A stretch of DNA of 64,000 bases from IMG/VR virus record IMGVR_UViG_3300045988_117466, positions 32,001 to 96,000 of that record. The stretch is one strand, 5' to 3'. The translations under genes and the position numbers were made by a program. The notes under the pieces were generated by a model. That model did no database searches. It had not been told where the DNA came from and saw only the letters and a program-made list of their open reading frames with translations. The DNA is from a virus. Numbering within the stretch: the first letter of the stretch is position 1; each line of letters begins with the position of its first letter. Below are positions 41,205-58,808 of the stretch, piece by piece.

Positions 41205-41233
41205 TTGAATCAATTCACGATATGTGCTATGAT
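41205..41233 (+). promoter_or_regulatory. candidate plus-strand promoter (extended -10)
   Basis: TTGAAT, a 17-nt spacer, then TGCTATGAT. Confidence 0.45.
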
Positions 41234-41239
41234 GATATT

Positions 41240-41487: not shown

Positions 41488-41491
41488 ACTT

Positions 41492-41710: not shown

Positions 41711-41722
41711 AATTTCCTCCAA

Positions 41723-41756
41723 TTTTAAAAAGAGCCCATGCTTTCACATAGGCTCT
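41723..41756 (-). terminator. terminator immediately after the tape-measure stop codon
   Basis: Minus strand: AGAGCCTATG / CATGGGCTCT (10 bp, one mismatch) with loop TGAAAG, followed by TTTT. Confidence 0.5.
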
Positions 41757-41759
41757 ACA

Positions 41760-44700
41760 TTATTTACCGATCGTAGGTTTACGACCAATTTTGTGATATT
41801 CTTTTAGTTTGTTAGCTTGCTCTTGATCATAAACCTGTTTTGCAACAACCTTAAGATCATTCAGAACACTCTTATCAACCATGCCTCCAGATTCTACTTT
41901 GATCAATGCATCATAATAAGAAGAGAAGTCTCCAGTACCAGTCATAATATCTTTTGTCTTAGAGGCTTTAACAACTGATTCAGAAATCTTAACAGCTTGT
42001 TTTAGCACATCAGATGTTTCTGGCTTCAGTAAGATTTCGTCTCTACGGACAGTAGCAATACCGTGATCATGATTACTTTGGATTACACCATTAAGTTTAG
42101 AAATTGGTATTACATCATCAATGACACCACCGTTTCTTACACCTGCATTTTTCAGAGCTTTTAAGATTTTATTTGATTGAGCTTGAGTATATGTTTTCCC
42201 CTTAGCTAAATAAAATTCTTTACCCTTCTTAGAGTTTTTGCTAGTAATTACTCCGAGTTTTCTACCAAGGTCTCCCATTGGGCCTGGATTGTGTACAACA
42301 TCATAACCCTTACTGGCTAAATAATTATTTAGAGGAGACCAGCTTTTAAGCTGAGCTTGAGTATAAGGAGTTCCTGTGTGGAATTTTAATCCTAATGACT
42401 TAGCTTTCTTTTGAGCAGGAGAAAGTTGAATTGTAACACTGAAACTTACTACAATTCCATTAGCCGATCTACACGTTGGAGTAATTGTTCCCTCATTGTC
42501 GCCTTTTGTGGCTGTAATAGTACATGAACTACCAGAGCCTGACATTGTTACATATCCAAGGCTGTTAGGATACCAAGAAAATGATTGTCCAGCTCCATCT
42601 GGAGGAACAATATCAGAAACAGTAACAGTCTTACTTTCTCCAGGGGCTAAAGTAATAGATGCTGGGCTAACACTGAAAGACATAAGATTATGTGCCTGTT
42701 GTTCGGGTGTTTTCATAGAACCACTAACACCACTAGCATTTCCAGTTTCAACTTTTGAAGAATCAACCTTAGAACCCGTAATACCAGTTGTACCAGTTAC
42801 ATTGGTATCAGGATTTGCAACATTATTAGTCACAGAGCTGTTCTTGTTCTGAGTATCTTTTGCGTTCTGTTCAGGTGTCTTGCCATTAGCAGAGCTATTG
42901 TATTCAGAATGATATAACTCACTTAGACCATTAATAAGTCCAGAATTAATAGCAGTGTCATTAATCTTCTTAAAGACATCAGAATAAGAATCTCCAACCT
43001 GTTTTAAGAACTTGCTAATAAGCTTAGATTGTTCATCCAGAGAACCGCTTAAAGATTTAAGCTGTTTATCCAAAGACTCTTGTAATTTTTCAGTCAGATC
43101 ATCGTATCCTTGGGATTCCATAGAATATTGATGTTCTTTCTTAGTGTCATCCATCTGTTCCTGGGCATCAGCAATTTGAGCATCTAATTTAGCTCTTTGT
43201 GCTTTTGCAGCTTCTCCTTCGACACCCTCTAAAGCAGCACGCTGAGCTTCAAGTGCTTGCAAATCTTTTGTCTGACTCTTGATGTTTTTGTCGTAATCGT
43301 AGTATTCTTTCTTACGACTCAATGCCTCTTTACGTTTATTAATGACTTTGACGAGAGCATCAACTTCAGCTTGCATCGTTGTCTTACCAAGTTCTACAAT
43401 TTGATTCTTATAGTCATTGGTATTTGTTGCAGCCTCACGAAGTTGTTTGTTGATTTCAGCTAACTTACTTTCAAAAGTGGCATCGCCAACCATTCGTTTA
43501 CCATTCTCGTCAAAAGTATCATGTAATTTATAGAGAGCATTTCTTTGCTCCATAAGATCAGCCATGTTTTGTTGGCCTTGACGAACATTATCGCTCAAAA
43601 GAGCAATTTTAGCTTTACCGTCTGTAGTCAACTTACCTGTGTCAGGATCGTTTAAGTAATCCTGATTCAGCATATTCATAAGATCGTTATTCTCATCGAT
43701 ACGAGTATTTCTCTTATCAATCTTACGACTGCTTTCATCAAGAGGGATCATAATAGCTTCTTGACGTAACTGTTCATTCTTTTCATCTAAAGAATAATTC
43801 TCTTCACGCCTTGAATACCAATCATCATAAAGCTCTTTGTATCTTTCAGAATCCTTAGCAACCTTATTCATCAGTTCCTGATCAGTTTTCATGATCTCAG
43901 CATTGACAGCAGCTCTGTCATTATTTCTAGCAATCTGATCAGTTTTTGACTGTTTAGTAGCATAGTCGCCATGAGCTTCAGCCATAGAAGCAGTATGTTC
44001 TAAAGCAGTAGCAGCATGTTCAGCTTCATCTGCAAGTCTTGTCAATCTATCAATTTTGATCTGATCAATTTCTTTTCTCACATTTGCAATAGCAGTATCA
44101 GTATCAACAATATTATTCTTAAAAGTTTGAATCTGAGCTTCATATGTATTCTTTTGTTCATCTGTTAAGATTCCCTTTTTCTTAGCCTTATCATACTCTG
44201 CCTGATATTTATTCAATTCTTGTAGCTGAATATTTTTCTGATTCTGATATTGCTGAATCTGATTGTTTAAATTAGCTGTTTTATTATCAAAAGTATCTGT
44301 CCCTTGAGCAATATTAAGATCATTGATCTTTTGATAGTTCTCTAGGATAGCAGACGTTTTAGATGCCATAGCATCATAATAACTAACAACCTTTTCAAGT
44401 TTGGTTTGTACCAGTTCTTGTTGTTGTTTCCTAAGCTCTTCAACTTGCTGTTTGCATTGTTTAGCTTTATCATACCAGTTCTTATATTCTTCAACAGCGC
44501 TACGAATCTTATCATTACTAATAGTTTTGATATCAATAGACCCGTTACGTACTTTCTTGAAATAAGATTTTAAAGCTTTTTGGTTCTTAGCTTTTGAAGC
44601 TTTTTTTGTTTTAGGAGCTTTCTTAACTGCTTGTTTCTCAAAGCTTTCATAGAATTTCTTATATTTCTTATAGCCTTGATTATTAGCAGTGATAGAAGAA

Positions 44701-45189
44701 CCAACACTCTTTAAAGCTTCATCGTAATCATTAACAGCAGAAGTAAGATCATGAACATTTTCTGCTTTAGCTGTCCAAAGATCAGTAGCAGCAGAAAGAT
44801 TTTCAATCTTTACTTCAATGAAATCAAAAGCTTTACCTATCTTATTAAGATAATTTTCAAGAGCTGATTTCTTAGATTTGGTTTTCTTCTTACCATTCCC
44901 AGAACCAGACTTACCAGAACCGGTTTTAGATTTACTAGAAGAAGTAGTTTTCTTCTTTTTACCTACAGTAGTTTTACTACCATTAGATTTAATTTTAATT
45001 CCAGCAGAGTTAGCATGAGCAGATCCATGAGCAAATGCTCCTTCACCACCAACAATCTTAGCTCTACTTCCAGTTTTTCCTTTGTTTAGGAGTTCCTTTG
45101 TTTGTAGGTGATTAAATACTATATCACCACGTTTGAGGTTCACAAATTCTGGGCCTTGAGACCCTACTGTAAACCATCTATTACCACGT
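41760..45189 (-). CDS. tape measure protein, exon 3
   Basis: The frame is open from 45188 (RGNRWFTVGSQGPEFVNLKRGDIVFNH...), upstream of the GTG called by the ORF track, and has no RBS. Coiled-coil rich, with a Big_2-like segment. Confidence 0.75.
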
Positions 45190-45319
45190 CAATTATGTTT
45201 TCATCGGTTCGCAACACCGACAAGAGTTTTCACTCCTCATGCTTTCACATGAGTTCAGACTATATCTTTTACCTGATTTTATTGTATGTATGTTTTGTTT
45301 GTTTTTTATTTGTGGGTAT

Positions 45320-45353
45320 TAAAAAAGAGCAGAAGTAAAATTACTTTTGCTCT
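45320..45353 (-). terminator. intrinsic terminator-like hairpin inside the intron, after the cargo genes
   Basis: Minus strand: a 12-bp stem AGAGCAAAAGTA / TACTTCTGCTCT (one mismatch) with loop ATTT, followed by TTTTT. Confidence 0.55.
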
Positions 45354-45380
45354 TCGGTAGAGGTTAAATTAATTTGTTTA

Positions 45381-46268
45381 TTATGCTCCTATACTTCGCC
45401 ATTTGCCTTTTGACCATTTGCAAATTTCTTCATCATCTATACAAAGGACATATTTTTTATTCCCGATTTTACAATTACAATGAATCTCTTCATCTCGGAT
45501 ATCCCACCATGTTAAAGATCCTTTGATTTTAAAATTTACCTTAGTCCATGTGCCAGGTTTGAGATCGATGTATTTTTTATTCCCTGTTAGTTTTAAGTTT
45601 CTGTCATATTTTTTGTAATCACAATCTAAAGAATAAGCACCTTTAGAATAAATACGAATTTTTTTATTACTTGCGTTAAAAAGCTTTGTTTTAAAAATAT
45701 TTGATCGAGTATCGTATTTATGCAACCAGCCGTTCATATGAATGCTTTTATATGGTTTTACAATTACGGAAATTGTTTTTTTAAAAGTTGTTGTTTTGTC
45801 CCAGGCGTTTTTAATTATATGATTGTTTAAGTCATCATCATAGTTCCCATTTTCTCCATAGCGATAATCATCATATACAGCAAAATGGTCTTCATAACAA
45901 TCAACACTTAATGTTATTTTGGATTTACCAAATTTCTTTGCATCAACATATGTATATAAATCTTCAACTCCAATTCCTTCATAAGAGTCTAAGGATATAT
46001 TTTTATTAGATCTTGACCATGAAATTGAATTAACATCCAAAGTGTATCCACCCTCTTCATCACCATAGTGCTTCCATAGCGTAGCATCATTTTTCATAAA
46101 TTCCCCATTATAGTATAGCTTAGGAGTAATTTTTTTCATCTGTCCATAATACATTGTAATAGTTTTAGGGACAGAGATACTGAAACCTGCTTGAGCGCTT
46201 TTGGTGTTAATAATCCATAAAAAACTAAACACTAATATAAAGGACATTAATTTTAAAAATTTTTTCAC
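45381..46268 (-). CDS. secreted protein with a Big_2-like Ig domain (intron cargo)
   Basis: GTG at 46268 follows AAGGAGGAGGGTGCTATT. Signal peptide KKFLKLMSFILVFSFLWIINTKSAQA. Ig-like ISVPKTITMYYGQMKKITPKL...KSKITLSV. Confidence 0.6.
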   Translation of the reverse strand: MKKFLKLMSFILVFSFLWIINTKSAQAGFSISVPKTITMYYGQMKKITPKLYYNGEFMKNDATLWKHYGDEEGGYTLDVNSISWSRSNKNISLDSYEGIGVEDLYTYVDAKKFGKSKITLSVDCYEDHFAVYDDYRYGENGNYDDDLNNHIIKNAWDKTTTFKKTISVIVKPYKSIHMNGWLHKYDTRSNIFKTKLFNASNKKIRIYSKGAYSLDCDYKKYDRNLKLTGNKKYIDLKPGTWTKVNFKIKGSLTWWDIRDEEIHCNCKIGNKKYVLCIDDEEICKWSKGKWRSIGA

Positions 46269-46284
46269 AATAGCACCCTCCTCC

Positions 46285-47154
46285 TTAAAATTCCTTTGTA
46301 ATCGGTTTTGTGAATGGTGTTTCACTTTCATAATAAGTATATTGCCCAGGGGATACCTTATCAGAATTTCCATAAGAAACTATTTCCATTTTGACAATCT
46401 TGTCCTTTGTTTCAAAACTGCTTTCTTCCCACATAGATTGATATGCTTTTAAATTATAGTAGTATAGAGATTGATCGCTTACTACGGTTCCATTTTTATC
46501 ATAAAAACGAATATCAATATTGGCCATATCATAATCATAGTCTGTTAGATTTTTGATTTTTATTCTATATGTCCGATATCCGTATGTAGATGCTTTGACT
46601 TCAATTTTTTCAATTTTATACGTGTCATCTATAAGCGTGGCTCCTTTCGGACAATATCCATTCTCTTTTATAAGTTCGTCATATGATTTCTTATCCCCTT
46701 TGGTTGTAAAAGAAAGATGTGTCTGATCAACTAACTTTTTTAGAATTTCCGCACGCTGGCTATTGTATACATAATAATTGTATTGTATCTTAGTCGGAGC
46801 ACTGGTGTAATCATCAAATAAATCATTTTGTGTATTTAAGGTTTTAATATATTCAGAAATTAAATTTTGTGTATTCTTGTTTTCGAATTGGATTTTAGTT
46901 TCTGAATATTTGTTTAGTGGTTTTAATTCAGTAGCGATATACTTTTGCATCATAGCTGCGTAGTCAGATTGAGATTGATTACTATCATCGGTCTTATCAC
47001 TAATCTCCCATCTTTTTTCGAGCCCAGTTTTTAAATCATTTGCTACTTGTTTGTCTGTGATTTTGGCTTCTTTTTGAGGAGCATCTTTCCCACAAGCACA
47101 AAATAAACATAAACTTGTAAGAAGCATACATCCAATTAAAATTTTCTTTTTCAT
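46285..47154 (-). CDS. putative lipoprotein (intron cargo)
   Basis: The ATG at 47154 follows GGAGGGAAAATGT. MKKKILIGCMLLTSLCLFCACGKD is a lipoprotein-type signal with Cys near the cleavage region. Confidence 0.6.
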   Translation of the reverse strand: MKKKILIGCMLLTSLCLFCACGKDAPQKEAKITDKQVANDLKTGLEKRWEISDKTDDSNQSQSDYAAMMQKYIATELKPLNKYSETKIQFENKNTQNLISEYIKTLNTQNDLFDDYTSAPTKIQYNYYVYNSQRAEILKKLVDQTHLSFTTKGDKKSYDELIKENGYCPKGATLIDDTYKIEKIEVKASTYGYRTYRIKIKNLTDYDYDMANIDIRFYDKNGTVVSDQSLYYYNLKAYQSMWEESSFETKDKIVKMEIVSYGNSDKVSPGQYTYYESETPFTKPITKEF

Positions 47155-47542
47155 ACATTTTCCCTCCATAATTTATTTATAAAGCAATTATACATTATTT
47201 GACATGTTTTTCATAGAGAGAATATTTGTTTATCATATTTATCAGGTAATTTATCATTTCGATTTAAACATTACTGTACCGCCATTAGCTTGCGGCTCTA
47301 CTCCTCATAAGAGGATAGTCGTTGAACCTTATCCTATTCGGATCTTGGCTGCTGATTGTCCATTGTAGCAGAAGCAGGGGATTTAACCTCGCTTCCATAT
47401 AATTAATTCTTTTTACTTTCGTAGCGTTCACATCTAGGCATATTTCATCCTTCTGTTGTAGCTTAATTATCTTTAAGACTTTCCAGCAATTAGATAAATT
47501 TTCACATATGTATTACTACATAAGGTCGCATATGTGGTTTAT

Positions 47543-50500
47543 ACGACAAGTTCGTCTCCTAATTCTCCTGTAAGAGCTCGTTCATCTTGTTTTAATCCCC
47601 AATCGCCACCATTAGCATGAGCATCTCCAGCAGATGATTTGAGCTTATCCGTTTTCTCTTGTAAATATTTGTTCTTTTCAGCCTGCACAACAGGATTAAT
47701 TTCTGATAAATCAGAGATTTTTGTTGTTCCCATCGCAAGAGCACGGCTTCCAAGCTTCTTAATTGTTCCGTGAGCAAAAGCACCAAATTCTTCAATATCA
47801 TCAAGCTCATTGTCGTACCAGTCTGTTAAGTCATCAACAGTACCTTGAGCGAAAGCATTTGAATATGGAATGAAAGATCCGTGTGCATTTGCTGTACCAT
47901 GGGCTTTGCCTTTCTTTTTTTTCTTTCCTGAGCTTTTCTTACCTCCTGAGGGCTCAGAAGGAGTACTACCAGTAACGAAATCAACAATTCGAGTGATATG
48001 TTTTGCTGCCCATCCTGCGATTGTTCCATCAGCAAGAGAGGTGTCCGCCTTAAGTTGTGCAGTGTTTGTAACTTTTTGGCTTTTCCATTCCTGAACTTTT
48101 TGATTCGCTTCAGTAATATCTCCTTTAAGATGTCCGGTTTTATCAACCTCAATCCCAAGGTATTCTAAAAGCTTTTGATTAGCTTTAGAAGCATCTACGT
48201 CTAATTTTCCTTCTTTGTCAATTGGAATATTTAAAAAATCAGCTATTTCTTTGGTGGCTTTTTTAGTATCTGCATCAACTTTAACGGTTGTAGACTTCTT
48301 TCCGCCTTTGCCAAGATTATCAATATCTTGTTTTGCCTTTTTGGTATTAGCCTTTACTTCAATAGTAACTTGACCTTTTTTCTTATGTTTATTGTATTCA
48401 TCAACAAGACGTTTAATCTCTTTATCAATCTTATCATTGCCAGTTTTTTCTACGGTATTATCTTTGCCAACCTTAAGTCCAGATTTTAACTTATTAAGTT
48501 GAGTGTTTAATCCAGATTTTGTTTTGATTTGCTTTCTAAAAACACCATTATCACTTTTGCCACTGACCATATTGGCAGTTTCTTTTTCAAGTTTAGATAC
48601 AGTTGTGTTTAAATTTTTGATTCTGCTTTTTAATTTACTTTGAGCTTCATTAAGTTTTTTCTTTGCACTTGCTTTATCATCGTCAGTTTTAGCATCTTTC
48701 CAAGTATCATAAGCATTGCTATAATCCTTTTGAGCTTTCTGTACAGAATCTCTAGCAGATTTAACTTTTTGATAAGAATTTTTCTTCCAGGATTCATATT
48801 TTTCGGTAGAATCTATAGCGTAATGGTTTTTGTCAGCTGTTGATTTAGCATTTGTAATAATTGAGTTACCATATTCAAACGCCTCTTCAGAATACTTATT
48901 ACCATATTTGTTTACAAGCTTTTTATCATTGGAATCAACAGCTCCTTCAAATTTGCTTTCTGCATCTTTAAATTCAGCCTTATCCTGAGCAATCTCAATC
49001 TCAAACTTTAACTTCTTGACCATCTCATCTGGGATATCTTCGCCAGCGTTTTTCAGTTTAAGAATCTGCTGTCTGTAATCCTCAATCTGTTCTCCTAATG
49101 CTGTTTTACCAGCACCATCTTTCATATTTTTCCATTTATCAACCAGTTGGTCAACATAACTTTCAGCTTTTTCGTACTGTTCTGTAACAGATTTAAAATC
49201 AATCTTACCACCATAATCTTTTAAACGATTCAGTACAGCTTCGAAAGGTTCAATACCCATACCCATTGCTTTAGCGGCAGTAGCAGTATTAGTGATCTTT
49301 CCAGAATATGTACCTTCAGCAGTTTTCTTTAAAGTACCAAAATCAGTATTAGCTTTTTGGGATTTGGCAGATAAATCATCTAAGAATTTAACCAGACCGC
49401 TATCATCAGAAGTAAAATACTTAGTAGTCTTAGCCCATGTCTTATCAAAAGTAGCAGCATCAGTCTTACCAGATGAACTCATAACACTTGTCAATGTTTT
49501 GAAATCATCTGTTCCAATAAGTCCTTTGTCACGTTCTTTCTTCTGAGCATTGAATGCTTCACGCATTGCTAAGTAAGTATCACCAGAGTCAGCTGTTTCT
49601 TTTGCTTGAAGATAATCACTCCAAGTAGACTGAGAGTTTGCCTGATTGATTAATTTAAGACGCTCTTTCAACTGATCAAGACTACCTGTCCATTTCTCAG
49701 TTTTAGAATTTAAGATATCAAAGGCTTGAGATGCTTCAGTAAGATTCAAACCATCAATGAAAGATTGAGTATCTTTATTATCACCAAGCTTTTCCTTGAT
49801 ATCTTCAATCATTGATTGAACATCTTTACCATCTTTTAAAAATCCTTCAAAATTTCCTTTATCGTCTAATTTGAAATCAACATTAAAAGAATCAGCCAAA
49901 GATTTGTTTAATTGCTCAATACTAACCCCATCATCTGTGGCAGCCTCTTTAAGCTTATCATAAGCATCTTTGGTATTATTGAGCCAATTCTGAACACCCT
50001 TGTTACTAGATTTATCATAGCTTTTAATAAACTTATCAAGAGCTCCTTGTGCTTTATCATCTTTAGCAAATTTCTTTGCTGCAGCAATAGTATTTTCTCG
50101 TTGTTCCTTGACCCAATCTTTATCTTTTAGATTATCTCTAGTCGCAGTATCTATGTTATAAGTATTAGATCCTAATCCTGTAAGGAAGCTTTGAGCACGA
50201 CTACCCAATTTATTATAATCAGTAATACTACCTGGCAATGAAGTGGCAATATCTTGATTGTATTGATCAAGAGCCTTTTGGGTTTTAGTAAGCCCAATTT
50301 TATATTTTTGAGCATAACCTGAGATTTTAGCGATTTCTTCACTAAGATCAGTTCCCTTAGGTAAATAGTCTTCAGTTTTATCCAAGATCTGCTTATATGA
50401 ACCAATAAATTTGTTCATGTCAGCTTGTTTGTATAAATCGAAGGTTTGATCCTTTGGTAATTTCAACACATCTTTGGCAGCCTTGTTGAAAGCAGTAGTT

Positions 50501-51531
50501 AACTGGCTGGTTTTATCGCCTTGCAGACCGTTTCTTAACTGAGTAGTTAAGGTGTCCATGTCGTTGCCCCAGAACTTATCAACACCAGTTCCAGAAGCTT
50601 TCTTAACATTCTCTATGTTACCTTCAACTAACTTGTCCCAAGTTTCATCAGAAGCATATTTCTTTTGTGCGCTTTCTTGTTTCTTCTCCTGAGATTCAAT
50701 CGCTTTGTCCATCAATCCAGATGTTTTAGCAATTGCATTTCCTTCTGCATCATATCCTGAAATAAGAGAAGGAGTAGTATCTAAAATTTCCTTGCGGATA
50801 CTTAAGAATCTCTCATAAGAAGAAGTATCTAAACTGATGTTATTACCGTATTCGTCTACACCTTTGGATAAAGATTCAAATTCTACTTTATTCCCTTTGA
50901 GAGTGGAAATATTACTTTGGACATCAGACATTTTGTCCTGATAAGTGCTACGGGTTTTATCAGCTTTTTCTACCTTATCTTTGTCATAAGTAGCAGCTTT
51001 CTTAATGTTTTCAATTCCTTTAGAAAGAGCACTTCCTGCAAATTCCATGATTAGACTTGCACCTAATCCTAATAACACATTTGCGGCAAAAGCACCAGCC
51101 TTAGCAGCTATGCCAGAAGCTTTAACATTTTCCACGAAACCTGCTAATCCACCTGCGGCAGATTGAGCAATGCTACCAGATTTTTCAACCTCTTTGTTGA
51201 ATTCTTCAAGACCTTTTCCATAACTATTTTTCTTATCACTAAGATCATAATTATTTTGCTTAGCTTGACCGTAAAGAGTACTAGCTGTATCACGACCTTT
51301 TTCAGTCTTCATTTCATCCTGAAGTCGCTTAAACATGTCCTCTTTTTCTTTGGTAGACTTATTACCAAAGATTTCAGGAACCATGCTGTTACTAAAGAAA
51401 TCCTGCAATCTACTTTGATCAGACTGCATATTCTCATAATTAGCCTTACGTCTTGTAGGACTAAGTGCATTCAGAATAGCACTACCAATTGGAAATTCAT
51501 TTTTACCAGTTTCTTTATTGTACTGTACAAG
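47543..51531 (-). CDS. tape measure protein, exon 2
   Basis: No ATG or RBS at the 5' end. Gly/Ala-rich hydrophobic segment (AAGGLAGF...AANVLLGLGASLIMEFAG), long coiled coils, ending ...GELGDELV(V). Confidence 0.7.
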
Positions 51532-51901
51532 CAAACTGTTTACTCAAGGGCAGGGAAATACCCTATTTTCACACTGGTAAAATATGTATTTGACAATCAC
51601 TAATGCAATATTCTATACTAATTATGTAACAAGAAATATGTATCATATCTCAAAGTAATAACACACATGGGGCTCACAATTCAGTGAGCCTTTTGTGTAT
51701 CTGAAATTAAAGGAGAAGAGAGGTTCATAAAGATACCTCTTTTTCGCAATTAACCTTGCAATATTTGGAAACATAAGTTATAATTAGAAACATCATGGAA
51801 TAATTAGTTCCCCAATTAATTATTTTCATACTAAAGGCATTCCTAGGAGGTAGGGATGCCTTTTCTCCATTTATGGGGTAACGATTCGTTCACCCATCAA
51901 A

Positions 51902-52708
51902 TTAACTTTCTAACTGATCTTCCAGATCCTTAATCTTAGAATCTCTAAATGCAATTTTCTTTCCAGTACTACGATGATTTGTTTCTATGTATCTACGTTT
52001 CAGATTGTTTAGTACATACTCTGCAGTCATTCTGTACATTGGATTTAGAGAACCAGAAGTTTCAATAATCGATTCAAGTTTATCATCGATCATTGTTACG
52101 ATTTTCTGCTTATACTCAGTTGCATTTAGTTTTCTATGATACTCATAGCGGTCTTTCTTTTTTAAATGAACGTGAACATCAATGATCTTATCAACAGTGG
52201 CTTCCAGATTTGTGTAATCAGATTCTAAAAGAACACGATCAATGTTGCGTACAGAATATTTAATTTTATCTGCATCATACTGTCTCTGAAGCTGACATTC
52301 ATCTGAAACTGCTACATCATATAGATCGTTATTATCTTGCTGAAGTTGTGTGATCAGCTCAATCATTCTCTCAAAAGCATCTGTGTATCTAGCTGTAAAG
52401 ATAAGAGCTTTGTTACCAGTAAACTTGTTTACCAGCATTGCAAATCCTTTACGATCAATATAATACATAGGACGCTCCTGGTTATTTAAATCAAGATAAG
52501 AGCCGAGGGAAAAATTTCCGGCGGCTAATTCAGGGATAACTTCTATAAAATGACGAATCTTTTTCATTACATCTGCATGGTCTTTCCCATAAGTCTCAGC
52601 CACATTGAGAGAAGTGGTGTACACATCACCATTGATCTCTTCAAGACCAAATTCCTCATTAATTTCTGCGATTTCACATTCAATAGCTTTCTTTGTTTCT
52701 TTTAACAT
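51902..52708 (-). CDS. Rha-family phage regulatory protein (intron cargo)
   Basis: TSLNVAETYGKDHADVMKKIRHF...PMYYIDRKGFAMLVNKFTGNKALIFTARYTDAFERM matches the Phage_pRha pattern. Confidence 0.65.
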   Translation of the reverse strand: MLKETKKAIECEIAEINEEFGLEEINGDVYTTSLNVAETYGKDHADVMKKIRHFIEVIPELAAGNFSLGSYLDLNNQERPMYYIDRKGFAMLVNKFTGNKALIFTARYTDAFERMIELITQLQQDNNDLYDVAVSDECQLQRQYDADKIKYSVRNIDRVLLESDYTNLEATVDKIIDVHVHLKKKDRYEYHRKLNATEYKQKIVTMIDDKLESIIETSGSLNPMYRMTAEYVLNNLKRRYIETNHRSTGKKIAFRDSKIKDLEDQLES

Positions 52709-52793
52709 AATTCAATTTCTCCTTTTAATATAAACTTAATTTCAAAAGGGGTCGCATTTCACGACCCCCTATCAACAACAATCTCACCAAACT

Positions 52794-53600
52794 TTAATCT
52801 TCAAGATCCCCAACAACTCTGTAAACAAGTTTCTGACCTTTACCAGTTACATAAGTCTGTGGAACAATCACATTGCAAATCACATGTTCACCAACTTCAA
52901 AACATCCGTTCTCAACGTATCTCTGATATGGCATGTTGTCCCGCATCAGGATTCCATTACTTCTCAGAATCTCAAAAAGACGATTCCTTCCAATGTCATA
53001 TCCATCATTCTGCAACAATTTGGCCATTGTGTTCATGTCGATCGTATCAGAAGAAGCAGTAACACATCTTGCAAAATCTACATCTTCTTTGGAAGCTTCA
53101 AGTTCTCCACGAAGCTCTGCGATTGTAGCTTGCTGAATTTCTAATGCTTTGAGTACAAACTCAGCTTCAGACAGATTTTTATATGGAATGTATCCACCTG
53201 TACGTCTGATCTGTGGAAGAACTTCAGATGTTACCCATCTTTTGAAACGATGTAATTTTTCAATTCTCTCTTCAATAAGGGGGTCATTTTGTGACACCCC
53301 CTTTGCTTTAGCAGGTTGCATTAAGAATAATAATGAATATAGTCCTGATTCATTAAGAACTGTGATGTTTTGCATTCCTCCAGCGGTTTGAATTTTTGCC
53401 ATTGTTTTGTCAGCTTTGTCAATTCTACGCAAGCTACGCTTGTGATTTGTATCTCCAAAAGCTATGCATACATCTTTTCCAACAAACCAAGGTTCATTGT
53501 CAATCTCAACGCATCTGATTGATCCAAATTCGTCATTTACGAAGTTCATGATCTGATTGTTATTTCCTACTTCATTTTCTGCTTTTGTTAAATTTGCCAT
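52794..53600 (-). CDS. Bro-N / KilA-C (ANT) antirepressor-like protein (intron cargo)
   Basis: FGSIRCVEIDNEPWFVGKDVCIAFG...ESGLYSLLF...FKRWVTSEVLPQIRRTGGY is Bro-N. The C-terminal MAKLLQNDGYDIGRNRLFEILRSNGIL is KilA-C-like. Confidence 0.7.
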   Translation of the reverse strand: MANLTKAENEVGNNNQIMNFVNDEFGSIRCVEIDNEPWFVGKDVCIAFGDTNHKRSLRRIDKADKTMAKIQTAGGMQNITVLNESGLYSLLFLMQPAKAKGVSQNDPLIEERIEKLHRFKRWVTSEVLPQIRRTGGYIPYKNLSEAEFVLKALEIQQATIAELRGELEASKEDVDFARCVTASSDTIDMNTMAKLLQNDGYDIGRNRLFEILRSNGILMRDNMPYQRYVENGCFEVGEHVICNVIVPQTYVTGKGQKLVYRVVGDLED

Positions 53601-53767
53601 ATTAAATTCTCCTTTTCTTCAGAAAGGTGCACCAAATGGCATAGAACAGATGGTGCTGATGATTTGCTTATCCTTCTATGCATATATGGCTAATTTACTA
53701 CCCCTTTAAAACACCAGGCTCTACCTAATGTTTTAAGACTCAATTAATGTGGTAAGTCTGCTAGAGC

Positions 53768-53796
53768 AGTATAAAAAGAGTATTAAATTATGTTAA
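53768..53796 (-). promoter_or_regulatory. candidate promoter inside the intron, upstream of the Bro-N gene
   Basis: Minus strand: TTAACA, a 17-nt spacer, then TATACT. Confidence 0.35.
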
Positions 53797-54233
53797 TGAG
53801 TATTTATAATATATCATATAAAATTCATTTCCCTATGTGCAAGCATGTTTCCATGCTGATAATTTTCTAGCGGCACATTCGCATACAGTTCTGATCATCC
53901 CTTTCTGATGTCACTCGTAAGGTGAGTTAACCAGATTCCCATTATGATCGATGGACGTTCCTCTAATATAGAGGCTTCGCTGCGGATTCTGTATAAATAT
54001 TGATCTTATTACTATATCTTAGGAATTACCCCTTGCCCTTAATACATCACTGTACTAAGTTAGTAATCAATATCGTTTAACAGTTCCCGTACATAAATTA
54101 TCAAAAAGTATTTCAGTTTCGGTTGTTTTCTAAGCAATCTCTTATTTGTATCACCATTTCGATACAAACTCGTTCTGTGTTACCACTAGATTGCTCTGGG
54201 CATTGTACATGAGGACAACTGATAATTTGCCCT

Positions 54234-57200
54234 ACCCAGCTTTCCTTTCGCTCCTGCGACTCCTAAAGCACCCATAAAGGCTGTTCTAAGAAGCCCAGCT
54301 TTAGTTACTAAATTTGTTATTTGAGTTCCAGCATCTACAAGTCCTTTGATAAAATCAGAAGAAATAGAAGTGTTCCACATTTCTTGGAAACTTGCTGTCA
54401 GCTGATCAACTTTACCTTGGATGGAATCAAGTTGAGTTTCGTTTTCACGAAGAGCTGATCCTTCTGAGTTTTGTGTTTCGTTGTAGACTTTTTCAAGCAT
54501 CTCTGGCTTCTGTAAAATACTGGCAACAATATTAGCTCTATTTTTTCCTGCAATTTTCTCTAAAATAGAAGCTTGTTTAAGGTCACCACCATCGGTAGAA
54601 CCAATTTCGCTCCAGATCTTACCCAATCCAAGTAAAAATTCATATGGATTTTTATAAGATCCATCATCTTTTAATAAATCAAAGCCTTTGTAGTCGTTTG
54701 ATGCTACTTTAGTTTGATTTTTAATGAGATCTCTCAACTGAGATGTGTTCTGAATGTAACCATCAACATCTTCACCTGCTTCTTGAAGCACATTCATATC
54801 AGTGCCTCGAATTCTTAAGGATACTGTTTTTAAACCAGCTCCAACGCTCTCAGGATTTTGCACGACGGAATTCCCAACTGTAGTAAGAGCAACTGACTGT
54901 TCATAGTTAGCACCTGCCGCCTGTAAAGCACTAGCAGATCTCTGTAATGAACTAGCAATCTCATCTGATGAAATAGGCTCTAAGTTACCGATATTATTCA
55001 AAACATCAACAACATTCTCTACATCATCAGCACCCTTATCGAATCCCTGCATAATAGAAATCAATGCATTAGTAGCATCATCTACCTGCTCAAATTCTGA
55101 TACATTCATGAGAATACCTGTCCACTTAGACATCTTCTCAGAATCTTGTGTGTTATAACCTAATCTAGCCCAGTCAGCAGTAGATTTGGTTAATTCCACA
55201 GCATCTCTACCGATATCTTTACCAGTAGCATACATATCTTTTTCGACAGTAGCATAAACATCACTCGTATCACTTGTGACTTTCTTTAACTCTGTCATTG
55301 CAGCATCCATTTCTTTGATGCTTTCAATTCCTTGTTGGAATCCTTGCCATACGACATCGATTCCACCCATTGAGATCAAGTACTTACTTAACTTAGTAAC
55401 TTCTTGACCCATATCTCCAACAATTTGTCCGAACAAACTCTTATATTCAGAACGACTCTTAAGCTGTGATCTAGCAATACCAGTATCCTGATTAAAATTA
55501 ATAGCATACTTTTCAAGCTTTCCATCATCTCTTGATCTTGCTTTGATATAAGCAGCCATTCCATTTCTACCCATACTGGTTTCAAGAATGTTACTGTTTA
55601 CACCAGAAGCTCTAAATAATTCTTCAGCTTTAGCTTCATTGAAATCATTTAAGGATAATCCTTCTCCGATAACAGTTCCCTGATTGTTCTGGAGCTTAAA
55701 TTGGTTTCTAAGTCTACCATGTTCAGTAAGCTCAGCGTTCAGTCTATTAAGCTCTCTAATATCTTCCTCAATTTCTTTATTGTCAAAGAAAACATCTCCA
55801 CTATGTTTTTCTTTTAAATCTCTAATTCGGTTAACTGTAGCTTCAACCTTAGTCGCAAATTCTGTTGTATATTGTTCAAGATCTTGACTAACAATGGTCT
55901 TTGATAAAGCTCTGTCAGCAGCATTTTTAACACGATCAGATTTAGGATTAGTATTCCCTAATGCTGTACCATCGTTTGCTCCACCAACATTTCCACCGGC
56001 TAAAACCTTGTTCATGTTCTTCAAGCCAGTAGCAATCTCACCAGTAAGATTAAATTTCTTATTTAAGTTATCAACCAGTCTTGTAACTTCACGAATTGAA
56101 CTACCAATACCAGCAAAAGCACCTGCGATCTTAGCAGAATAAGCAGTAGACTTGTCAGCTAGATTAGCAATCTTATTTGTCATAGTCTCAATATCAGAAG
56201 CTTTCTTGTCTGTAAAAGACTGTCCTGTATTGAATTTAACTTTTAAATCAAGATTCTTTTTCAGATCATTGATAATCTTCTCAACAGTAACTAAATCGTC
56301 TAATACAGCATCAGTATTGATACCAACTTTAATAGGCTCAGAAGCTTTTTCTCTTAAAGAAGTAAGCTTGCTTTCGGCTTGTGTTAACTCTTCATCATTA
56401 ACATTGATGTCAATTTTTGTGTCTCCGCTGTTAGAATCCTCTTTAAATTTTTGAGTTGAAGTAATAGCTTTCTCAAGATCTTCAACATTGCCTTTAAAAT
56501 TAACCGCAACGTCAATAGCATCCTTAGAGCGAAGTTCATTTACTTGTTGAAGAATGTTATCAATATTCTCTGTATTAGCTTTAAAATTAATAGTAATATC
56601 TATATTTTCTTTTGATCTTAGTTCATTAATTTCTTGTAAAATTGTATTGAACTCGGAATCGTTTGCTTTAAGATTAACAACGATATCTTTGCCTTCGTAA
56701 GAAGCAATCTTTTCATCAACCTTAGCCAATGCAGATTCTAACTGAGAAGTGTCAGCAGTAACTTTTACAGAAGATTCTTTAGGGTGTTCACTTTCTGTAA
56801 CACTGTTTGTCTTAGTTTCAGTAACATTTCTGCTTGGAAATTCACGAATTGCATCTTTGTTTTTGCTTAACCATTCACGGCTTTCTTGAGACCAAGGAGT
56901 TTCAATAGTAGCTCCTTTTTCAGCTTTAATAGATGTGTATGTATCAACAGTTTTAACAGCTTCTTGAAGACCTTTGGCTTCCTCGGCATAGATATTTTCT
57001 CCGTTCTTAATCTTTTCATTGAATTTCTGGATATATTCTCTAGCGCTTTGGAAAGTACTGATCAGGTCTTTGTTACTCATGTCTTTCATGTCAGCAGGCA
57101 TTTCAAAATCTTTATCAACTTCCCTTTGATGGAGTTCTAATTTTTTAACTGCTTCAGATAAGAATTGTGTAATATTTTTATCAACAGCATGAGTAGTAGA

Positions 57201-58307
57201 ACCTTCTTCTGGCTGATAATTGCTTAGTATTTTACTGTAATACTCGGCTTTCTGTAATTCCTCATCGGTAAGAGTTTCACCTTTGGATTGTTTTTCCATC
57301 AGGTTCTTACTGCCGGCTTTTGCACCGTTGTATTGTTGAGGACTAATTGCTTGTCCTTCTTGAAATTTATATGGTTTACTAGAGTCAAACCCAGAAATCA
57401 AAATACCTTCTTGGGCTAAAATATCACTCCATTGTTTATTGAATTGGTTTTTAAGTTTATTGGTTACTCCTGTAGTCTTTTTGATATTTCTATCAGTGCT
57501 AGTCATAGCCTGAGTAAGAGCCTTATTAACCTGTTTAACAACATCCTCTTCGATCGGAGATAAAATATTTTTTAAGTCGATTCCCTGGGCTTGGAACAGG
57601 CTTTTATAACCTTCTGTACCTGCAAAATCAGTTTGTCCTGTTAGCAATTCTTTTATAAACTTTTGCCTAGAAGTAATAGTATTTCTTAACTCACCAGCCT
57701 GTTTGAGCATTTCATCGTTCTTACTCCAATCAGAATTTGACATTAAACCATGCAGTTCTTCAAAAGCTTTTCCAATATCTTCTTGAGCTAGCATTCCAGC
57801 CATTGCATATTCTTTAAAATCATTTAAAGAGATACCATTTTTAGAATTACCATGTAATTCGTTATATTGTGTTTTAGATTCGTTGTAAAAATCTTTATAT
57901 TTATCTTGCTTATAAGTCTTTTTTTGTACTTCGTGTACCTTAGAAGCAGCTCTTGTGGCAAGATCACTGTCCTCGTAGCTACGTTTAGAAACCTTGCTTA
58001 AATTGTCGTTCTTAATTTTTTCAAGATCATTGTAAGTAGTTTTAAGATTCTTTAACTTCTTTTCTGCATCGGCCAAATCTTTAGATTCATATACAAATTG
58101 AAAATTTGTTAATCCAGTTTTATCAATATAACTTCTGATGCTTTTAGCAACTTTATCCATAGAGGATTTATTGATATTAGCACCAATAGGTACTTGGACT
58201 TGTTTAAAACCATTTACTACTTCGCTTTTAGCTTTTTCTAAAGAGGCTTGATCAACGTCAACCCCCATAGAGGCAGTAAAAGAAATTACTTGTGTAGTTT
58301 CTGCCAT
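54234..58307 (-). CDS. tape measure protein, exon 1 (contains the TP901-type TMP core region)
   Basis: RBS GGGGGTGAAATAATAA precedes the ATG. DDATNALISIMQGF...SSDEIASSLQRSASALQAAGANYEQSVALTTVGNSVVQNPESVGAGLKTVSLRI matches the TMP core. The exon ends ...GVAGAKGKLG. Confidence 0.75.
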
Positions 58308-58310
58308 TTA

Positions 58311-58808
58311 TTATTTCACCCCCTGTGATTTAAAGTCAGCTATCATTGCAGCTTTTAATTCGTTCATATATTGCCCTTGTACGATCGCCATAGCTTCTTG
58401 GGCACAACTAGCTTCCAACTCAGCTCTTCGGCTGTTAACATCGTTCTCTATAGTCTGCATAGGACTAGGAGAAGAAGTAGGAGTTCCAACATTGTATCCA
58501 CCATGTTCTCCACCAATAAAGTCCCATTCAAATACTGTTTCAGGACTCTGATTATAATGCCCACCTATAGAAGCAGAAGAGATAGTAATTCCACCTTCCG
58601 CTGTTCCAGGCCCACTGATAGTTTTAACCAAAGGCTGACTAGCTTCATATAGTCCATAGCTTCGTCCATATTGCTTAGGACTGTAATCTCCATAAAAGCT
58701 GGCTGCAGCCAATTCACCAATTTCTTTCAATTTTTCTGATGCTAATTGAGCAGCCAAATTAGCTGCAGCAACATTCATTTTCGTTAACACTTCCTGTGCT
58801 TTGCTCAT
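58311..58808 (-). CDS. hypothetical tail-module protein (165 aa)
   Basis: RBS GGAAGGAGAATTAC. The gene abuts the TMP start. Confidence 0.5.
   Translation of the reverse strand: MSKAQEVLTKMNVAAANLAAQLASEKLKEIGELAAASFYGDYSPKQYGRSYGLYEASQPLVKTISGPGTAEGGITISSASIGGHYNQSPETVFEWDFIGGEHGGYNVGTPTSSPSPMQTIENDVNSRRAELEASCAQEAMAIVQGQYMNELKAAMIADFKSQGVK

What the first reader, a model, noticed from the sequence alone, without database searches (positions are those of the whole stretch)
41760..58307. Three 'tape-measure-like' ORFs are probably exons of one ~3830-codon tape-measure gene
The ORF track shows three large coiled-coil ORFs on the minus strand (54186-58307, 47539-51534, 41760-45143), separated by 2.4-2.7 kb.
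- Only the first has an RBS and ATG. The other two open without an SD, and their frames stay open upstream of the start codon called by the track.
- ORF 2 ends ...ALTGELGDELVV. The open frame ahead of ORF 3 reads RGNRWFTVGSQGPEFVNLKRGDIVFNHLQTKELL.
- Joined, these give one contiguous block of the kind I recall near the C-terminal part of Firmicutes-phage TMPs (GE.GPE.V..G....VG..G.E.V.L..GD.I.N). That recollection is from memory and has not been checked by alignment.
- The TP901-type TMP core is in exon 1 and the Gly/Ala-rich hydrophobic segment is in exon 2, which is the usual TMP order.
- Splice sites chosen from the P1/P10 pairings (see the two intron findings) keep the frame: 1358 + 2473 codons including the stop, giving 3830 aa.
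- At the usual ~1.5 Angstrom per residue, that implies a tail of roughly half a micrometre, which is very long.
Basis: partly seen in the sequence, partly recalled or inferred. Interest (0 to 1): 0.85.

Follow-up and report, generated by a model that had tools for sequence, protein, structure and literature searches.

The report
Phage tape-measure gene with two introns
Three large neighbouring reading frames in this gut phage are pieces of one 3830-residue tail tape-measure gene split by two self-splicing (group I) introns, a known arrangement, although these introns carry swappable cell-envelope and regulator genes instead of the usual homing endonuclease.

Summary

- **Exons.** They are 58307-54234, 51531-47543 and 45189-41760 on the minus strand. 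Joined, they give one 11,493-nt frame of 3830 aa.
- **Junction 2.** The joined sequence reads ...GELGDELVV|RGNRWFTVG..., which matches without gaps a domain that is contiguous in hundreds of uninterrupted 2000-5600-aa homologues.
- **Junction 1.** 33 giant homologues align in one piece across it.
- **Both insertions look like group I introns.** Each has an upstream exon ending in U paired to G in a guide sequence, a final intron G, P10, and P/Q/R/S core elements.
- **Intron 2.** Its two halves match Rfam RF00028 separately (41.2 and 28.3 bits). They are separated by 1.9 kb of cargo in the P8 loop.
- **Intron 1.** It has no Rfam hit itself. Homologous introns at the same site in 45-51%-identical relatives show compensatory changes in P1, P2, P7 and P8, and one of them hits RF00028.
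- **Selection.** All exons are under purifying selection (dN/dS about 0.05-0.15).
- **Novelty.** Multi-intron tape-measure genes are already described in Bacillus cereus prophages, so this is a new member of a known kind.
- **The less ordinary part.** Neither intron carries a recognisable nuclease. The cargo is antirepressor-like proteins and lipoprotein or secreted proteins, and it is exchanged as cassettes between near-identical ribozymes.
- **Not tested.** Splicing itself and tail length.

The parts
58316..58323 (-). Shine-Dalgarno site (GGGGGTGA) of the tape-measure gene, 8 nt upstream of the ATG at 58307
54234..58307 (-). Exon 1 (1358 codons). Contains the TP901-type tape-measure core and ends ...AGAKGKLG with U54234.
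51532..54233 (-). Intron 1 (2702 nt), a group I intron. The catalytic core lies in the first ~400 nt, two cargo ORFs sit downstream of P9, and the last base is G51532.
54196..54209 (-). Intron 1 internal guide sequence. GCCCAG (54201-54196) pairs with exon CUGGGU (54239-54234), forming P1 with a U.G wobble at the splice site. UGUACAA (54209-54203) pairs with exon 2 UUGUACA (51530-51524), forming P10.
   Evidence: P1 shows a compensatory change in L004 and L006 (GUGGGU/GCCCAC).
53835..54194 (-). Intron 1 ribozyme core.
- P2: 54194-54188 / 54140-54134
- P2.1: 54168-54161 / 54152-54145
- P4: 54091-54086 / 53986-53981
- P5 plus a long P5 extension
- P6 and P6a: 53974-53970 / 53964-53960
- P7: 53949-53944 / 53898-53893
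- P8: 53935-53930 / 53909-53904
- P9 with a GAAA-capped hairpin: 53878-53835
- P3 is only tentatively assigned.
   Evidence: RNAalifold with compensatory pairs; coordinates.
53885..53891 (-). Intron 1 P9.0 5' strand, GAACUGU. It pairs with ACAGUUU (51539-51533), immediately before the terminal G51532.
52794..53600 (-). Intron 1 cargo ORF 1 (268 aa). Bro-N plus KilAC/ANT domains, an antirepressor-like protein with no nuclease domain.
51902..52708 (-). Intron 1 cargo ORF 2 (268 aa), a Rha-family regulator. This slot is replaced or shortened in relatives.
51532..51901 (-). Intron 1 conserved, highly structured 3' tail. It is 94-96% identical in relatives and its folding z-score is -4.7.
47543..51531 (-). 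Exon 2 (1329 codons plus 2 nt). Begins LVQYNK, contains the hydrophobic Gly/Ala-rich segment, and ends ...GELGDELV plus the GU of the split Val codon.
45190..47542 (-). Intron 2 (2353 nt), a group I intron with P7.1/P7.2-type hairpins and 1.9 kb of cargo in the P8 loop. A UAA stop lies 1 nt inside the intron, and the last base is G45190.
47241..47542 (-). Intron 2 5' ribozyme half.
- Guide sequence GCGAC (47529-47525) pairs with exon GUCGU (47547-47543).
- P10: CCAC 47537-47534 pairs with GUGG 45187-45184
- P2
- P3: 47499-47493 / 47255-47249
- P4: 47488-47483 / 47355-47350
- P6a
- P7 5' strand: 47320-47315
- P7.1: 47314-47303
- P7.2: 47296-47278
- P8 5' strand: 47249-47241
   Evidence: (RF00028, 41.2 bits, E 2.7e-9, model positions 5-158).
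46285..47154 (-). Intron 2 cargo ORF 1, a 289-aa predicted lipoprotein (MKKKILIGCMLLTSLCLFCAC|G). A TATAAT -10 box lies about 20 nt upstream of its RBS.
45381..46268 (-). Intron 2 cargo ORF 2, a ~295-aa protein with an N-terminal signal peptide (VKKFLKLMSFILVFSFLWIINTKSAQA). No known family.
45321..45353 (-). Terminator-like hairpin (13-bp stem with one mismatch, followed by U6) closing the cargo cassette. The conserved 3' block of the intron starts here.
45190..45277 (-). Intron 2 3' ribozyme half.
- P8 3' strand: 45277-45269
- P7 3' strand AUAGUC: 45263-45258
- P9: 45253-45236
- Two further hairpins
- Terminal G: 45190
   Evidence: (RF00028, 28.3 bits, E 6.2e-6, model positions 189-253).
41760..45189 (-). 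Exon 3 (1 nt plus 1143 codons including the stop). Begins (V)RGNRWFTVGSQGPEF. Its C-terminus is colinear with the end of homologue P0136. The distal tail protein gene follows downstream at 39982-40815.

Best explanation
The region holds one tail tape-measure gene of an SPbeta-like siphovirus that probably infects Lachnospiraceae of the human gut. The gene is interrupted by two unrelated group I introns.

**Proposed mechanism**
1. The late transcript runs through all 16.5 kb.
2. Each ribozyme pairs its internal guide sequence with the last 5-6 nt of the upstream exon (P1, with a U.G wobble at the cleavage site).
3. Free guanosine cleaves the 5' splice site.
4. P10, plus P9.0 in intron 1, aligns the downstream exon.
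5. The exon's 3'-OH attacks after the terminal intron G.

The exons are joined in frame at 54234|51531 and 47543|45189, giving an 11,493-nt mRNA for a 3830-aa protein.

**Cargo.** The ORFs sit in peripheral loops (P8 of intron 2, downstream of P9 in intron 1) and are not needed for catalysis. They are expressed as separate proteins from their own ribosome-binding sites and probably their own promoters.

**Shown.** Exon continuity by homology, splice-site rules, the core helices and their covariation, purifying selection on all exons, and the cargo boundaries.

**Inferred.** That the RNAs actually self-splice, when the cargo is expressed, and the tail length.
For: **Protein continuity**
- A 198-aa peptide spanning junction 2 finds 903 clusters at E<1e-10.
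- Hundreds of 2000-5600-aa proteins match query positions ~90-180 in one stretch across the junction at 119/120.
- P0134, P0136, P0149 and P0152 read ...LTGELG.EL(V/I)VRGNRWFTVG.NGAEF... with no gap at the junction.
- 33 of these proteins give a single BLASTP HSP across junction 1. Examples are P0212 (aa 939-1607, E 4e-91) and P0160 (aa 962-1643).
- P0134 covers aa 1465-2968 in one HSP, and its gene is followed directly by Dit.
- L006, a 45%-identical relative, has no insertion at junction 2.

**Intron 2**
- The 5' half scores 41.2 bits against RF00028 (E 2.7e-9, model positions 5-158, starting at P1 on the splice site).
- The 3' half scores 28.3 bits (E 6.2e-6, model positions 189-253).
- A 9-bp P8 stem joins the two halves across the cargo.

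**Intron 1**
- P1 has 6 bp with a U.G wobble, P10 has 7 bp, and P9.0 has 7 bp.
- RNAalifold on the window, L004 and L006 independently recovers P1, P2, P2.1, P6, P6a, P7 and P8. 24 of the pairs show changes on both sides.
- The L004 intron at the same codon hits RF00028 over the full model (37.3 bits, E 6e-6).

**Selection**
- dN/dS against relatives, computed as the ratio of the dN and dS values reported, is 0.11 for exon 2, 0.10 for exon 1b, 0.15 for the start of exon 3 and 0.05 for exon 1.

**Intron polymorphism**
- Relatives carry a third insertion at aa 1145/1156 that the window lacks, so their 1167-aa and 203-aa ORFs are one continuous frame here.

**Context**
- The TIGR01760 core is present.
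- Dit lies downstream.
- Gene order and ORF lengths match L001, which carries YonD, YonB, YomW and YomU-type genes.
Against: - No RNA or protein data exist for this phage.
- No Rfam hit reaches the curated gathering score of 50 bits. The whole-window scan found nothing.
- Intron 1 itself gets no RF00028 hit even in a 651-nt slice.
- P3 of intron 1 is not securely assigned, and about 27 nt separate the best P3 candidate from P4.
- Ribosomes reading out of exon 1 would run 15 codons into intron 1, across its guide sequence, before stopping.
- A strong terminator-like hairpin lies inside intron 2, upstream of its 3' half, and the late transcript would have to read through it.
- No intron-less allele of either site was found among close relatives.
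- Around junction 1 the protein alignment is gappy, so the exact junction there rests on the RNA pairing rules.
Confidence: 0.9

Rival explanations
1. The tape-measure function is split. The three ORFs would be translated separately into three polypeptides that assemble in the tail, and the intervening DNA would be ordinary intergenic cargo.
For: Gene callers annotate them as separate proteins in all relatives. The cargo genes look like ordinary phage accessory genes with their own RBS.
Against: - ORF2 and ORF3 have no Shine-Dalgarno site, and their only candidate starts are TTG and GTG.
- Junction 2 cuts a conserved domain in mid-motif, and that domain is contiguous in hundreds of homologues.
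- Group I cores with guide sequences matched to the exon ends sit exactly at both boundaries.
Confidence: 0.04
2. The gene is dead. On this view the insertions are degenerate, non-splicing intron remnants or other mobile DNA in a defective phage, and the downstream ORFs are relics.
For: No homing endonuclease is present. Neither intron passes the Rfam gathering score. A terminator-like hairpin lies within intron 2.
Against: - The three exons total 3830 codons without a single internal stop.
- dN/dS is about 0.05-0.15 in all three exons (derived).
- The same architecture occurs in every relative examined, on contigs up to 183 kb.
- The ribozyme halves are 98-99.7% identical across 17 loci whose adjacent exon differs by up to 26% in protein sequence.
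Confidence: 0.04
3. The insertions are removed at the DNA level, for example by recombinase-mediated excision during the lytic cycle, or are skipped during translation, rather than being spliced from RNA.
For: Nothing specific. It is considered only because the insertions are large (2.4-2.7 kb) and carry genes.
Against: - No recombinase gene lies in or next to the insertions, and there are no flanking direct repeats at the boundaries.
- Group I hallmarks account for the boundaries to the nucleotide.
- A bypass of more than 2 kb has no precedent (own knowledge).
Confidence: 0.01

Closest known systems
Group I introns TMP-IVS1, -IVS2 and -IVS3 in tape-measure genes of Bacillus cereus-group prophages (Tourasse & Kolsto 2008, PMC2504315)
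   Same: - Several group I introns lie at different sites of one Firmicutes-phage tape-measure gene.
- The insertions are in frame, with a stop at or near the intron start.
- P1/P10 are adapted to each site.
- Some introns lack a complete homing endonuclease.
- Presence and absence vary among related phages.
   Different: - The gene here is about three times longer (3830 aa against more than 1200 aa).
- The host lineage differs: gut Lachnospiraceae-type, SPbeta-like phage.
- The introns are 2.4-2.7 kb because they carry two non-nuclease cargo genes each.
SPbeta bnrdE/bnrdF and T4 td/nrdB/sunY group I introns
   Same: They are self-splicing introns in phage genes, with ORFs looped out of peripheral helices. 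Own knowledge: P6a in td, P9.1 in sunY. The phage here is SPbeta-like by gene content.
   Different: Those introns interrupt nucleotide-metabolism genes and encode GIY-YIG, HNH or LAGLIDADG homing endonucleases. The cargo here has no nuclease domain.
Staphylococcus phage Twort orf142, with three group I introns in one gene (own knowledge; Twort is listed in PMC2504315 Table 3)
   Same: Multiple group I introns interrupt a single phage gene, and the ORF fragments are mis-called as separate genes.
   Different: The Twort introns are short and closely related to each other. The two introns here differ in architecture: intron 2 has P7.1/P7.2-type hairpins, while intron 1 has a large P2/P2.1 and P5 extension.
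Intron-fragmented essential genes of gut 'Jug' jumbo phages (PMC12880540)
   Same: These are gut phages whose genes appear fragmented because of group I introns. Splicing was confirmed there by metatranscriptome reads across junctions, which is the test needed here.
   Different: The Jug introns average about 206 nt, lie in terL, nrdD and polymerase genes of 360-402-kb Bacteroides phages, and are associated with homing endonucleases.

Membership tests
Group I intron (both insertions) | The 5' exon ends in U, which forms a U.G wobble in P1 with an internal guide sequence near the intron's 5' end. | tested here: met
   - Intron 1: CUGGGU (54239-54234) pairs with GCCCAG (54201-54196).
- Intron 2: GUCGU (47547-47543) pairs with GCGAC (47529-47525).
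- In intron 1 the U.G is invariant and the outer P1 pair is compensated in L004 and L006.
Group I intron (both insertions) | The last intron nucleotide is G, and the 3' exon pairs with the guide sequence (P10). | tested here: met
   - The terminal bases are G51532 and G45190.
- P10 of intron 1 is 7 bp: 54209-54203 with 51530-51524.
- P10 of intron 2 is 4 contiguous bp, or 5 of 6 positions: 47537-47534 with 45187-45184.
- Intron 1 also has a 7-bp P9.0.
Group I intron: intron 2 | A conserved catalytic core (P3-P9, P/Q/R/S elements) recognised by the Rfam RF00028 covariance model. | tested here: met
   - The two halves hit separately: 41.2 bits, E 2.7e-9, model positions 5-158, and 28.3 bits, E 6.2e-6, model positions 189-253.
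- A 9-bp P8 stem joins them.
- The E-values apply to short slices only.
Group I intron: Rfam curated membership | A single hit at or above the RF00028 gathering score (50 bits). | tested here: not met
   - The whole window gives 0 hits at gathering.
- Each half of intron 2 scores below 50 bits.
- Intron 1 has no hit.
- The likely reasons are 1.9-2.3 kb of cargo inside the structure and long P2/P5 extensions.
- A cargo-deleted construct could not be scanned with these tools.
Group I intron: intron 1 | Core helices supported by covariation among homologues. | tested here: met
   - RNAalifold on three homologues predicts P1, P2, P2.1, P6, P6a, P7 and P8.
- 15 plus 9 pairs are kept through changes on both sides.
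- Homologue L004 hits RF00028 at 37.3 bits, E 6e-6.
- Only three diverged sequences were available, so the statistics are thin.
Group I intron: intron 1 | A P3 helix forming the P3-P7 pseudoknot, with a short J3/4 junction. | tested here: inconclusive
   - L006 (UCAUCG/UGGUGA) and L004 (CAGUA/UACUG) have a P3 candidate right after UUAGAAAA and right after P7.
- In the window the equivalent is 3 bp, or else a shifted AACCG/UGGUU that overlaps P8.
- About 27 nt separate it from P4.
- These assignments were made by eye on the sequences.
Group I intron | Guanosine-dependent self-splicing activity. | not testable with these tools
   This needs in-vitro transcription and splicing, or RNA-seq.
Mobile group I intron with a homing endonuclease | The intron encodes a LAGLIDADG, GIY-YIG, HNH, His-Cys or PD-(D/E)xK nuclease. 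| tested here: not met
   - Intron 1 cargo is Bro-N plus ANT and Rha.
- Intron 2 cargo is a lipoprotein and a secreted protein.
- No nuclease domain was found with Pfam, PHROGs, NCBIfam, PADLOC or PDB sequences.
- Six further cargo families in relatives also lack one.
Phage tail tape-measure protein (TP901 type) | The TIGR01760/PF10145 core scores above the curated cut-offs. | tested here: met
   TIGR01760 scores 60.7 bits (cut-off 28.8) over aa 989-1337. PF10145 scores 61.8 bits (cut-off 33.2).
Phage tail tape-measure protein | Position in the tail module, between the tube and chaperone genes and the distal tail protein. | tested here: met
   - Dit (DUF6558, SPP1_Dit, phrog_33) is at 39982-40815 and a minor tail protein at 36530-39955.
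- The upstream gene order and ORF lengths match L001, which has YomU_Tube and YomW.
- The two small ORFs just upstream have no family hit.
Phage tail tape-measure protein | Protein length sets tail length (about 1.5 A per residue). | not testable with these tools
   3830 x 1.5 A = 574.5 nm is arithmetic only. Electron microscopy is needed.

The most novel reading that the evidence does not exclude
In this phage lineage the group I introns may have been turned into carriers of exchangeable accessory-gene cassettes rather than homing endonucleases.

**What was observed**
- Intron 2 keeps a near-invariant ribozyme (98-99.7% identical in 18 loci).
- It also keeps a fixed expression frame: a -10 box and RBS up to the start codon, then a terminator hairpin.
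- Between these, at least eight unrelated families of lipoproteins and zinc-ribbon membrane proteins are swapped in six combinations.
- Intron 1 carries antirepressor-like regulators in the same way.

**What this could mean**
- The cargo could be lysogeny-expressed envelope or exclusion factors.
- They would sit harmlessly inside an essential late gene because the ribozyme removes them from the mRNA.
- They would also be genetically linked to the tape-measure allele, the protein that Ltp-type exclusion lipoproteins are known to target.
Probability: 0.3. Interest if true: 0.65.

Novelty: new member of a known kind. Interest (0 to 1): 0.45.

Why it matters
**Annotation.** In this abundant group of about 130-180-kb gut phages the tape-measure gene is systematically called as 3-4 separate 'hypothetical' or 'minor tail' proteins. 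Recognising the introns restores one 3830-aa protein. It also gives a testable tail-length prediction of about 0.57 um.

**Biology.**
- The case extends multi-intron tape-measure genes from Bacillus prophages to SPbeta-like gut phages.
- It shows at least three intron sites in one gene, with presence and absence varying among relatives.
- It documents large group I introns whose cargo is envelope proteins and regulators rather than a nuclease, exchanged as cassettes.
- If the cargo proves functional, for example in superinfection exclusion or lysis-lysogeny control, introns would count as a site where phages carry accessory genes.

Tried and rejected
- **Rfam.** A whole-window scan at gathering and an 18-kb scan at E<=10 found no intron. 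Only short slices exposed the intron 2 halves. Slices of intron 1's 5' and 3' parts gave nothing.
- **Homologue search with the full protein.** A search with the full 3830-aa protein timed out.
- **Homologue search around junction 1.** The best 120 hits were all exon-sized ORFs of close relatives, and none spanned the junction. Continuity came only from the 50%-representative search.
- **Intron-less alleles.** Degenerate DNA patterns for the ligated junctions found no match in IMG/VR or JGI metagenomes.
- **Annotated phages.** A megablast against them gave only a 47-nt match.
- **RNAduplex.** Run on the long intron halves, it produced meaningless giant duplexes. It was replaced by an exact-stem search.
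- **Q-element scan.** A scan of IMG/VR with ATCCGCAGCSAAGCCTY hit at least 120 loci, including contigs labelled GVMAG. The motif is not specific to this intron family.
- **TIGR01760 on the joined protein.** The match did not extend across junction 1.
- **L135.** The contig of the closest relative without intron 2 is cut 276 nt upstream of its gene, so its junction 1 could not be examined.
- **Cargo function.** PDB sequence and PADLOC searches gave nothing usable for the cargo proteins.
- **Other mechanisms.** Group II introns, inteins, translational bypass and DNA excision were considered and rejected. There is no reverse transcriptase ORF and no recombinase, and the insertions are out of frame with stops.

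Full report
**1. The observation**

They are separated by 2652 and 2396 nt.
- ORF1 has a good ribosome-binding site, GGGGGTGA, 8 nt before its ATG. ORF2 and ORF3 'start' at TTG and GTG with nothing comparable upstream.
- The ORF3 frame is open for 15 codons above the called GTG and reads RGNRWFTVGSQGPEF. It is closed by a TGA that straddles the proposed 3' splice site.
- The ORF2 frame is open for only 4 codons above its TTG, so that part of the observation carries no weight.
- Joining 58307-54234, 51531-47543 and 45189-41760 gives 11,493 nt with a single terminal stop, which is 3830 aa.
- Exon 1 contains the TP901-type tape-measure core. TIGR01760 scores 60.7 bits against a cut-off of 28.8 over aa 989-1337, and PF10145 also matches.
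- The Gly/Ala-rich hydrophobic segment starts at aa 1476, in exon 2.

**2. Are the three ORFs one protein?**

*Junction 2.*
- A 198-aa peptide spanning junction 2 was scored against 1.84 billion representative proteins. It found 903 clusters at E<1e-10.
- Apart from two exon-2-type ORFs that stop at the junction, the hits are mostly 2000-5600-aa proteins. They match query positions ~90-180 in one stretch, straight across the junction at 119/120.
- Aligned, several read the same as the joined window sequence with no gap. P0136 reads ALTGELGQELVVRGNRWFTVGDNGAEF. P0134 reads SLTGELGTELVVRGNRWFTVGENGAEF. P0149 and P0152 are similar.

*Junction 1.*
- 33 of the same giant proteins give a single BLASTP HSP spanning aa 1358/1359. 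Examples are P0212 (aa 939-1607, E 4e-91) and P0160 (aa 962-1643).
- The few dozen residues around the junction are variable and gappy. Continuity is shown, but the exact join there rests on RNA rules.

*Other support.*
- P0134 (2415 aa) covers aa 1465-2968 in one HSP. Its gene is followed directly by the distal tail protein gene, as in the window.
- L006, a 45%-identical relative, has no insertion at junction 2.
- Lachnospiraceae genome assemblies encode contiguous versions of the junction 2 domain.

**3. What are the insertions?**

*Intron 2 (47542-45190).*
- A short-slice Rfam scan gives RF00028 (group I intron) at 41.2 bits, E 2.7e-9. It covers model positions 5-158 from 47548 to 47249, so it begins with P1 on the splice site.
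- The 3' end gives 28.3 bits, E 6.2e-6, covering model positions 189-253 at 45300-45236.
- The two halves are joined by a perfect 9-bp P8 stem, 47249-47241 with 45277-45269.
- The 1.9 kb of cargo therefore lies in the P8 loop, which explains why whole-window scans saw nothing.
- P1 is GUCGU/GCGAC with the terminal U.G. A UAA stop lies one base inside the intron. The last base is G45190. CCAC pairs with GUGG of exon 3 to form P10.
- Two hairpins between P7 and P3' look like the P7.1/P7.2 of subgroup IA. That assignment rests on my own knowledge and was not tested with subtype models.

*Intron 1 (54233-51532).*
- It has no Rfam hit of its own.
- By sequence it has a 6-bp P1 (CUGGGU/GCCCAG, with U.G at the site) and an adjacent 7-bp P10 (UGUACAA/UUGUACA). 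It also has a 7-bp P9.0 between the bases just after P7 and those just before the terminal G51532.
- Relatives L004 and L006, whose tape-measure proteins are 51% and 45% identical, carry a homologous intron at the same codon.
- The L004 copy, which lacks the long P5 extension, hits RF00028 over the full model (37.3 bits, E 6e-6).
- RNAalifold on the three sequences, run without guidance, recovers P1, P2, P2.1, P6, P6a, P7 and P8. It reports 15 plus 9 pairs kept through changes on both sides.
  - P1: CUGGGU/GCCCAG changes to GUGGGU/GCCCAC.
  - P7: GAUCAU/AUGAUC changes to GACUAU/AUAGUC.
  - P2: 5 of 7 pairs show such changes.
- P3 remains uncertain in the window copy.
- The core closes by about 53835. 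The two ORFs and a conserved, strongly structured 370-nt tail (z = -4.7) follow it.

**4. Function of the exons**

- dN/dS against relatives, computed as the ratio of the dN and dS values reported, is 0.11 for exon 2 (1328 codons), 0.10 for exon 1b, 0.15 for the start of exon 3 and 0.05 for exon 1.
- The same split architecture occurs in every relative examined. These are seven metagenome loci and 14 IMG/VR loci, on contigs up to 183 kb.
- This argues against a dead gene.

**5. A natural control in the same gene**

- Most relatives have a first ORF of only 1165-1170 aa.
- They carry an extra insertion at aa 1145 (L001-L003, 849 nt, no ORF) or aa 1156 (L007, with a DUF723/CapR ORF). The window lacks this insertion.
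- What is called as a 1167-aa ORF plus a 203-aa ORF in those relatives is one uninterrupted frame here.
- Many more distant giant homologues begin at positions equivalent to aa 1112, 1157, 1228, 1255 or 1280, inside the TP901 core. This suggests still more interruption sites in this family.

**6. Cargo**

- None of the four intron ORFs has a nuclease domain.
  - Intron 1 encodes a Bro-N plus KilAC/ANT protein and a Rha-family protein. PHROGs labels both as anti-repressor or regulator.
  - Intron 2 encodes a lipoprotein and a signal-peptide protein of unknown family.
- The window's intron 2 was compared with 17 related loci.
  - The ribozyme halves are 97.8-99.7% identical, although the adjoining exon 2 tail is only 74-94% identical in protein.
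  - The cargo between them varies from 1.4 to 2.1 kb.
  - It comprises at least eight unrelated protein families in six combinations, all on the sense strand.
  - These are lipoproteins with lipoboxes, zinc-ribbon proteins with a transmembrane segment, and a DUF4177 protein.
- In L001 and L007, which carry a different cargo set, the conserved blocks end a few bases inside the first cargo ORF, after a TATAAT box and RBS. They resume exactly at a terminator-like hairpin, 45353-45321.
- The Rha slot of intron 1 is exchanged in the same way.
- L006 carries zinc-ribbon cargo on the opposite strand.
- Whether these cassettes are expressed in lysogeny is untested. So is how the late transcript passes the internal terminator.

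**7. Comparison with what is known**

[quoted passage not shown] Those introns were in frame, had early stops, some lacked a complete endonuclease, and were shared patchily between phages.
- Group I introns that fragment essential genes of large gut phages have been confirmed by metatranscriptomics (PMC12880540).
- The central claim is therefore a new member of a known kind.
- I found no report of antirepressor-type or envelope-protein cassettes inside phage group I introns. The literature search was limited, and absence there is weak evidence.

**8. Tail length**

- 3830 aa at 1.5 A per residue gives 574.5 nm.
- This is arithmetic on an assumption. The C-terminal part is probably not all helical.
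- Homologues of up to 5604 aa exist, so the protein is long but not an outlier in its family.

**9. Verdict**

- The finding is ordinary in kind. It is useful for annotation, and it has a moderately interesting side story in the nuclease-free, cassette-swapping cargo.

Noticed in passing
Window 54873|54872 (after aa 1145) and 54840|54839 (after aa 1156); L001 13436-14284; L007 ~13472-15014: Most relatives carry a third insertion in the TP901 core that the window lacks. In L001-L003 it is 849 nt with no ORF and has a group-I-like P1 (UAGGU/GCCUA) and a terminal G. In L007 it sits 11 codons downstream and carries a DUF723/CapR ORF. L001 would also lose 11 residues (NSVVQNPESVG) relative to the window.
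   Followed up: partly
Window 45290-47240 and the equivalent region of L001-L003 and L136-L149: The P8-loop cargo of intron 2 is modular. At least eight unrelated families (lipoproteins, zinc-ribbon membrane proteins, DUF4177) occur in six combinations between ribozyme halves that are 98-99.7% identical. In L001 and L007 the exchange boundaries fall at the cargo start codon and at the terminator hairpin.
   Followed up: yes
Window 45321-45353 (minus strand): A strong intrinsic-terminator-like hairpin (13-bp stem followed by U6) lies inside intron 2, upstream of its 3' ribozyme half. A tape-measure transcript would have to read through it. The simple terminator scan missed it because its loop is only 2 nt.
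   Followed up: partly
Window 47240-47560 compared with 47545-48144, and loci L136-L149: The intron 2 ribozyme is far more conserved (98-99.7% in nucleotides) than the adjoining exon (74-94% in protein). Exon sequence next to the intron is also more similar than distal exon sequence: in P0003, aa 2568-2688 are 96.7% identical against 65% further upstream. This looks like co-conversion or recent spread, even though no endonuclease is present.
   Followed up: partly
Proteins P0165, P0172, P0195, P0269, P0256, P0130, P0133, P0214: Many giant homologues begin at residue 1-2 aligned to window aa 1112, 1157, 1162, 1228, 1255 or 1280, inside the tape-measure core. Their genes are probably also interrupted, at other sites.
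   Followed up: no
Window 40816-41759: A 945-nt gap separates the tape-measure stop from the Dit gene, whereas in L006 and L135 Dit follows directly. It holds one 76-aa ORF with a hydrophobic segment (41492-41722) and about 680 nt with no ORF. There is no Rfam hit and no similarity to annotated phages.
   Followed up: partly
Window 51590-51619 (plus strand): A near-consensus sigma-70-type promoter (TTGACA, 18-nt spacer, TATACT; 11 of 12 matches) lies on the antisense strand within the conserved 3' tail of intron 1, pointing into the Rha cargo ORF. Promoter-like sites in the region are not more frequent than in shuffled sequence.
   Followed up: no
L006 13319-14536: In this 45%-identical relative the intron at junction 1 carries two cargo ORFs on the strand opposite to the tape-measure gene: a 222-aa zinc-ribbon protein and a 114-aa protein.
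   Followed up: no
Window 59397-59867 (minus strand): A DUF1064 ORF (90.8 bits) lies in the tail module, downstream of the ORF that corresponds by position and length to L001's tube gene and upstream of the tape-measure gene. Relative L001 also has an ORF with a faint LAGLIDADG match between tail genes (3934-4866). These may be free-standing mobile genes.
   Followed up: no
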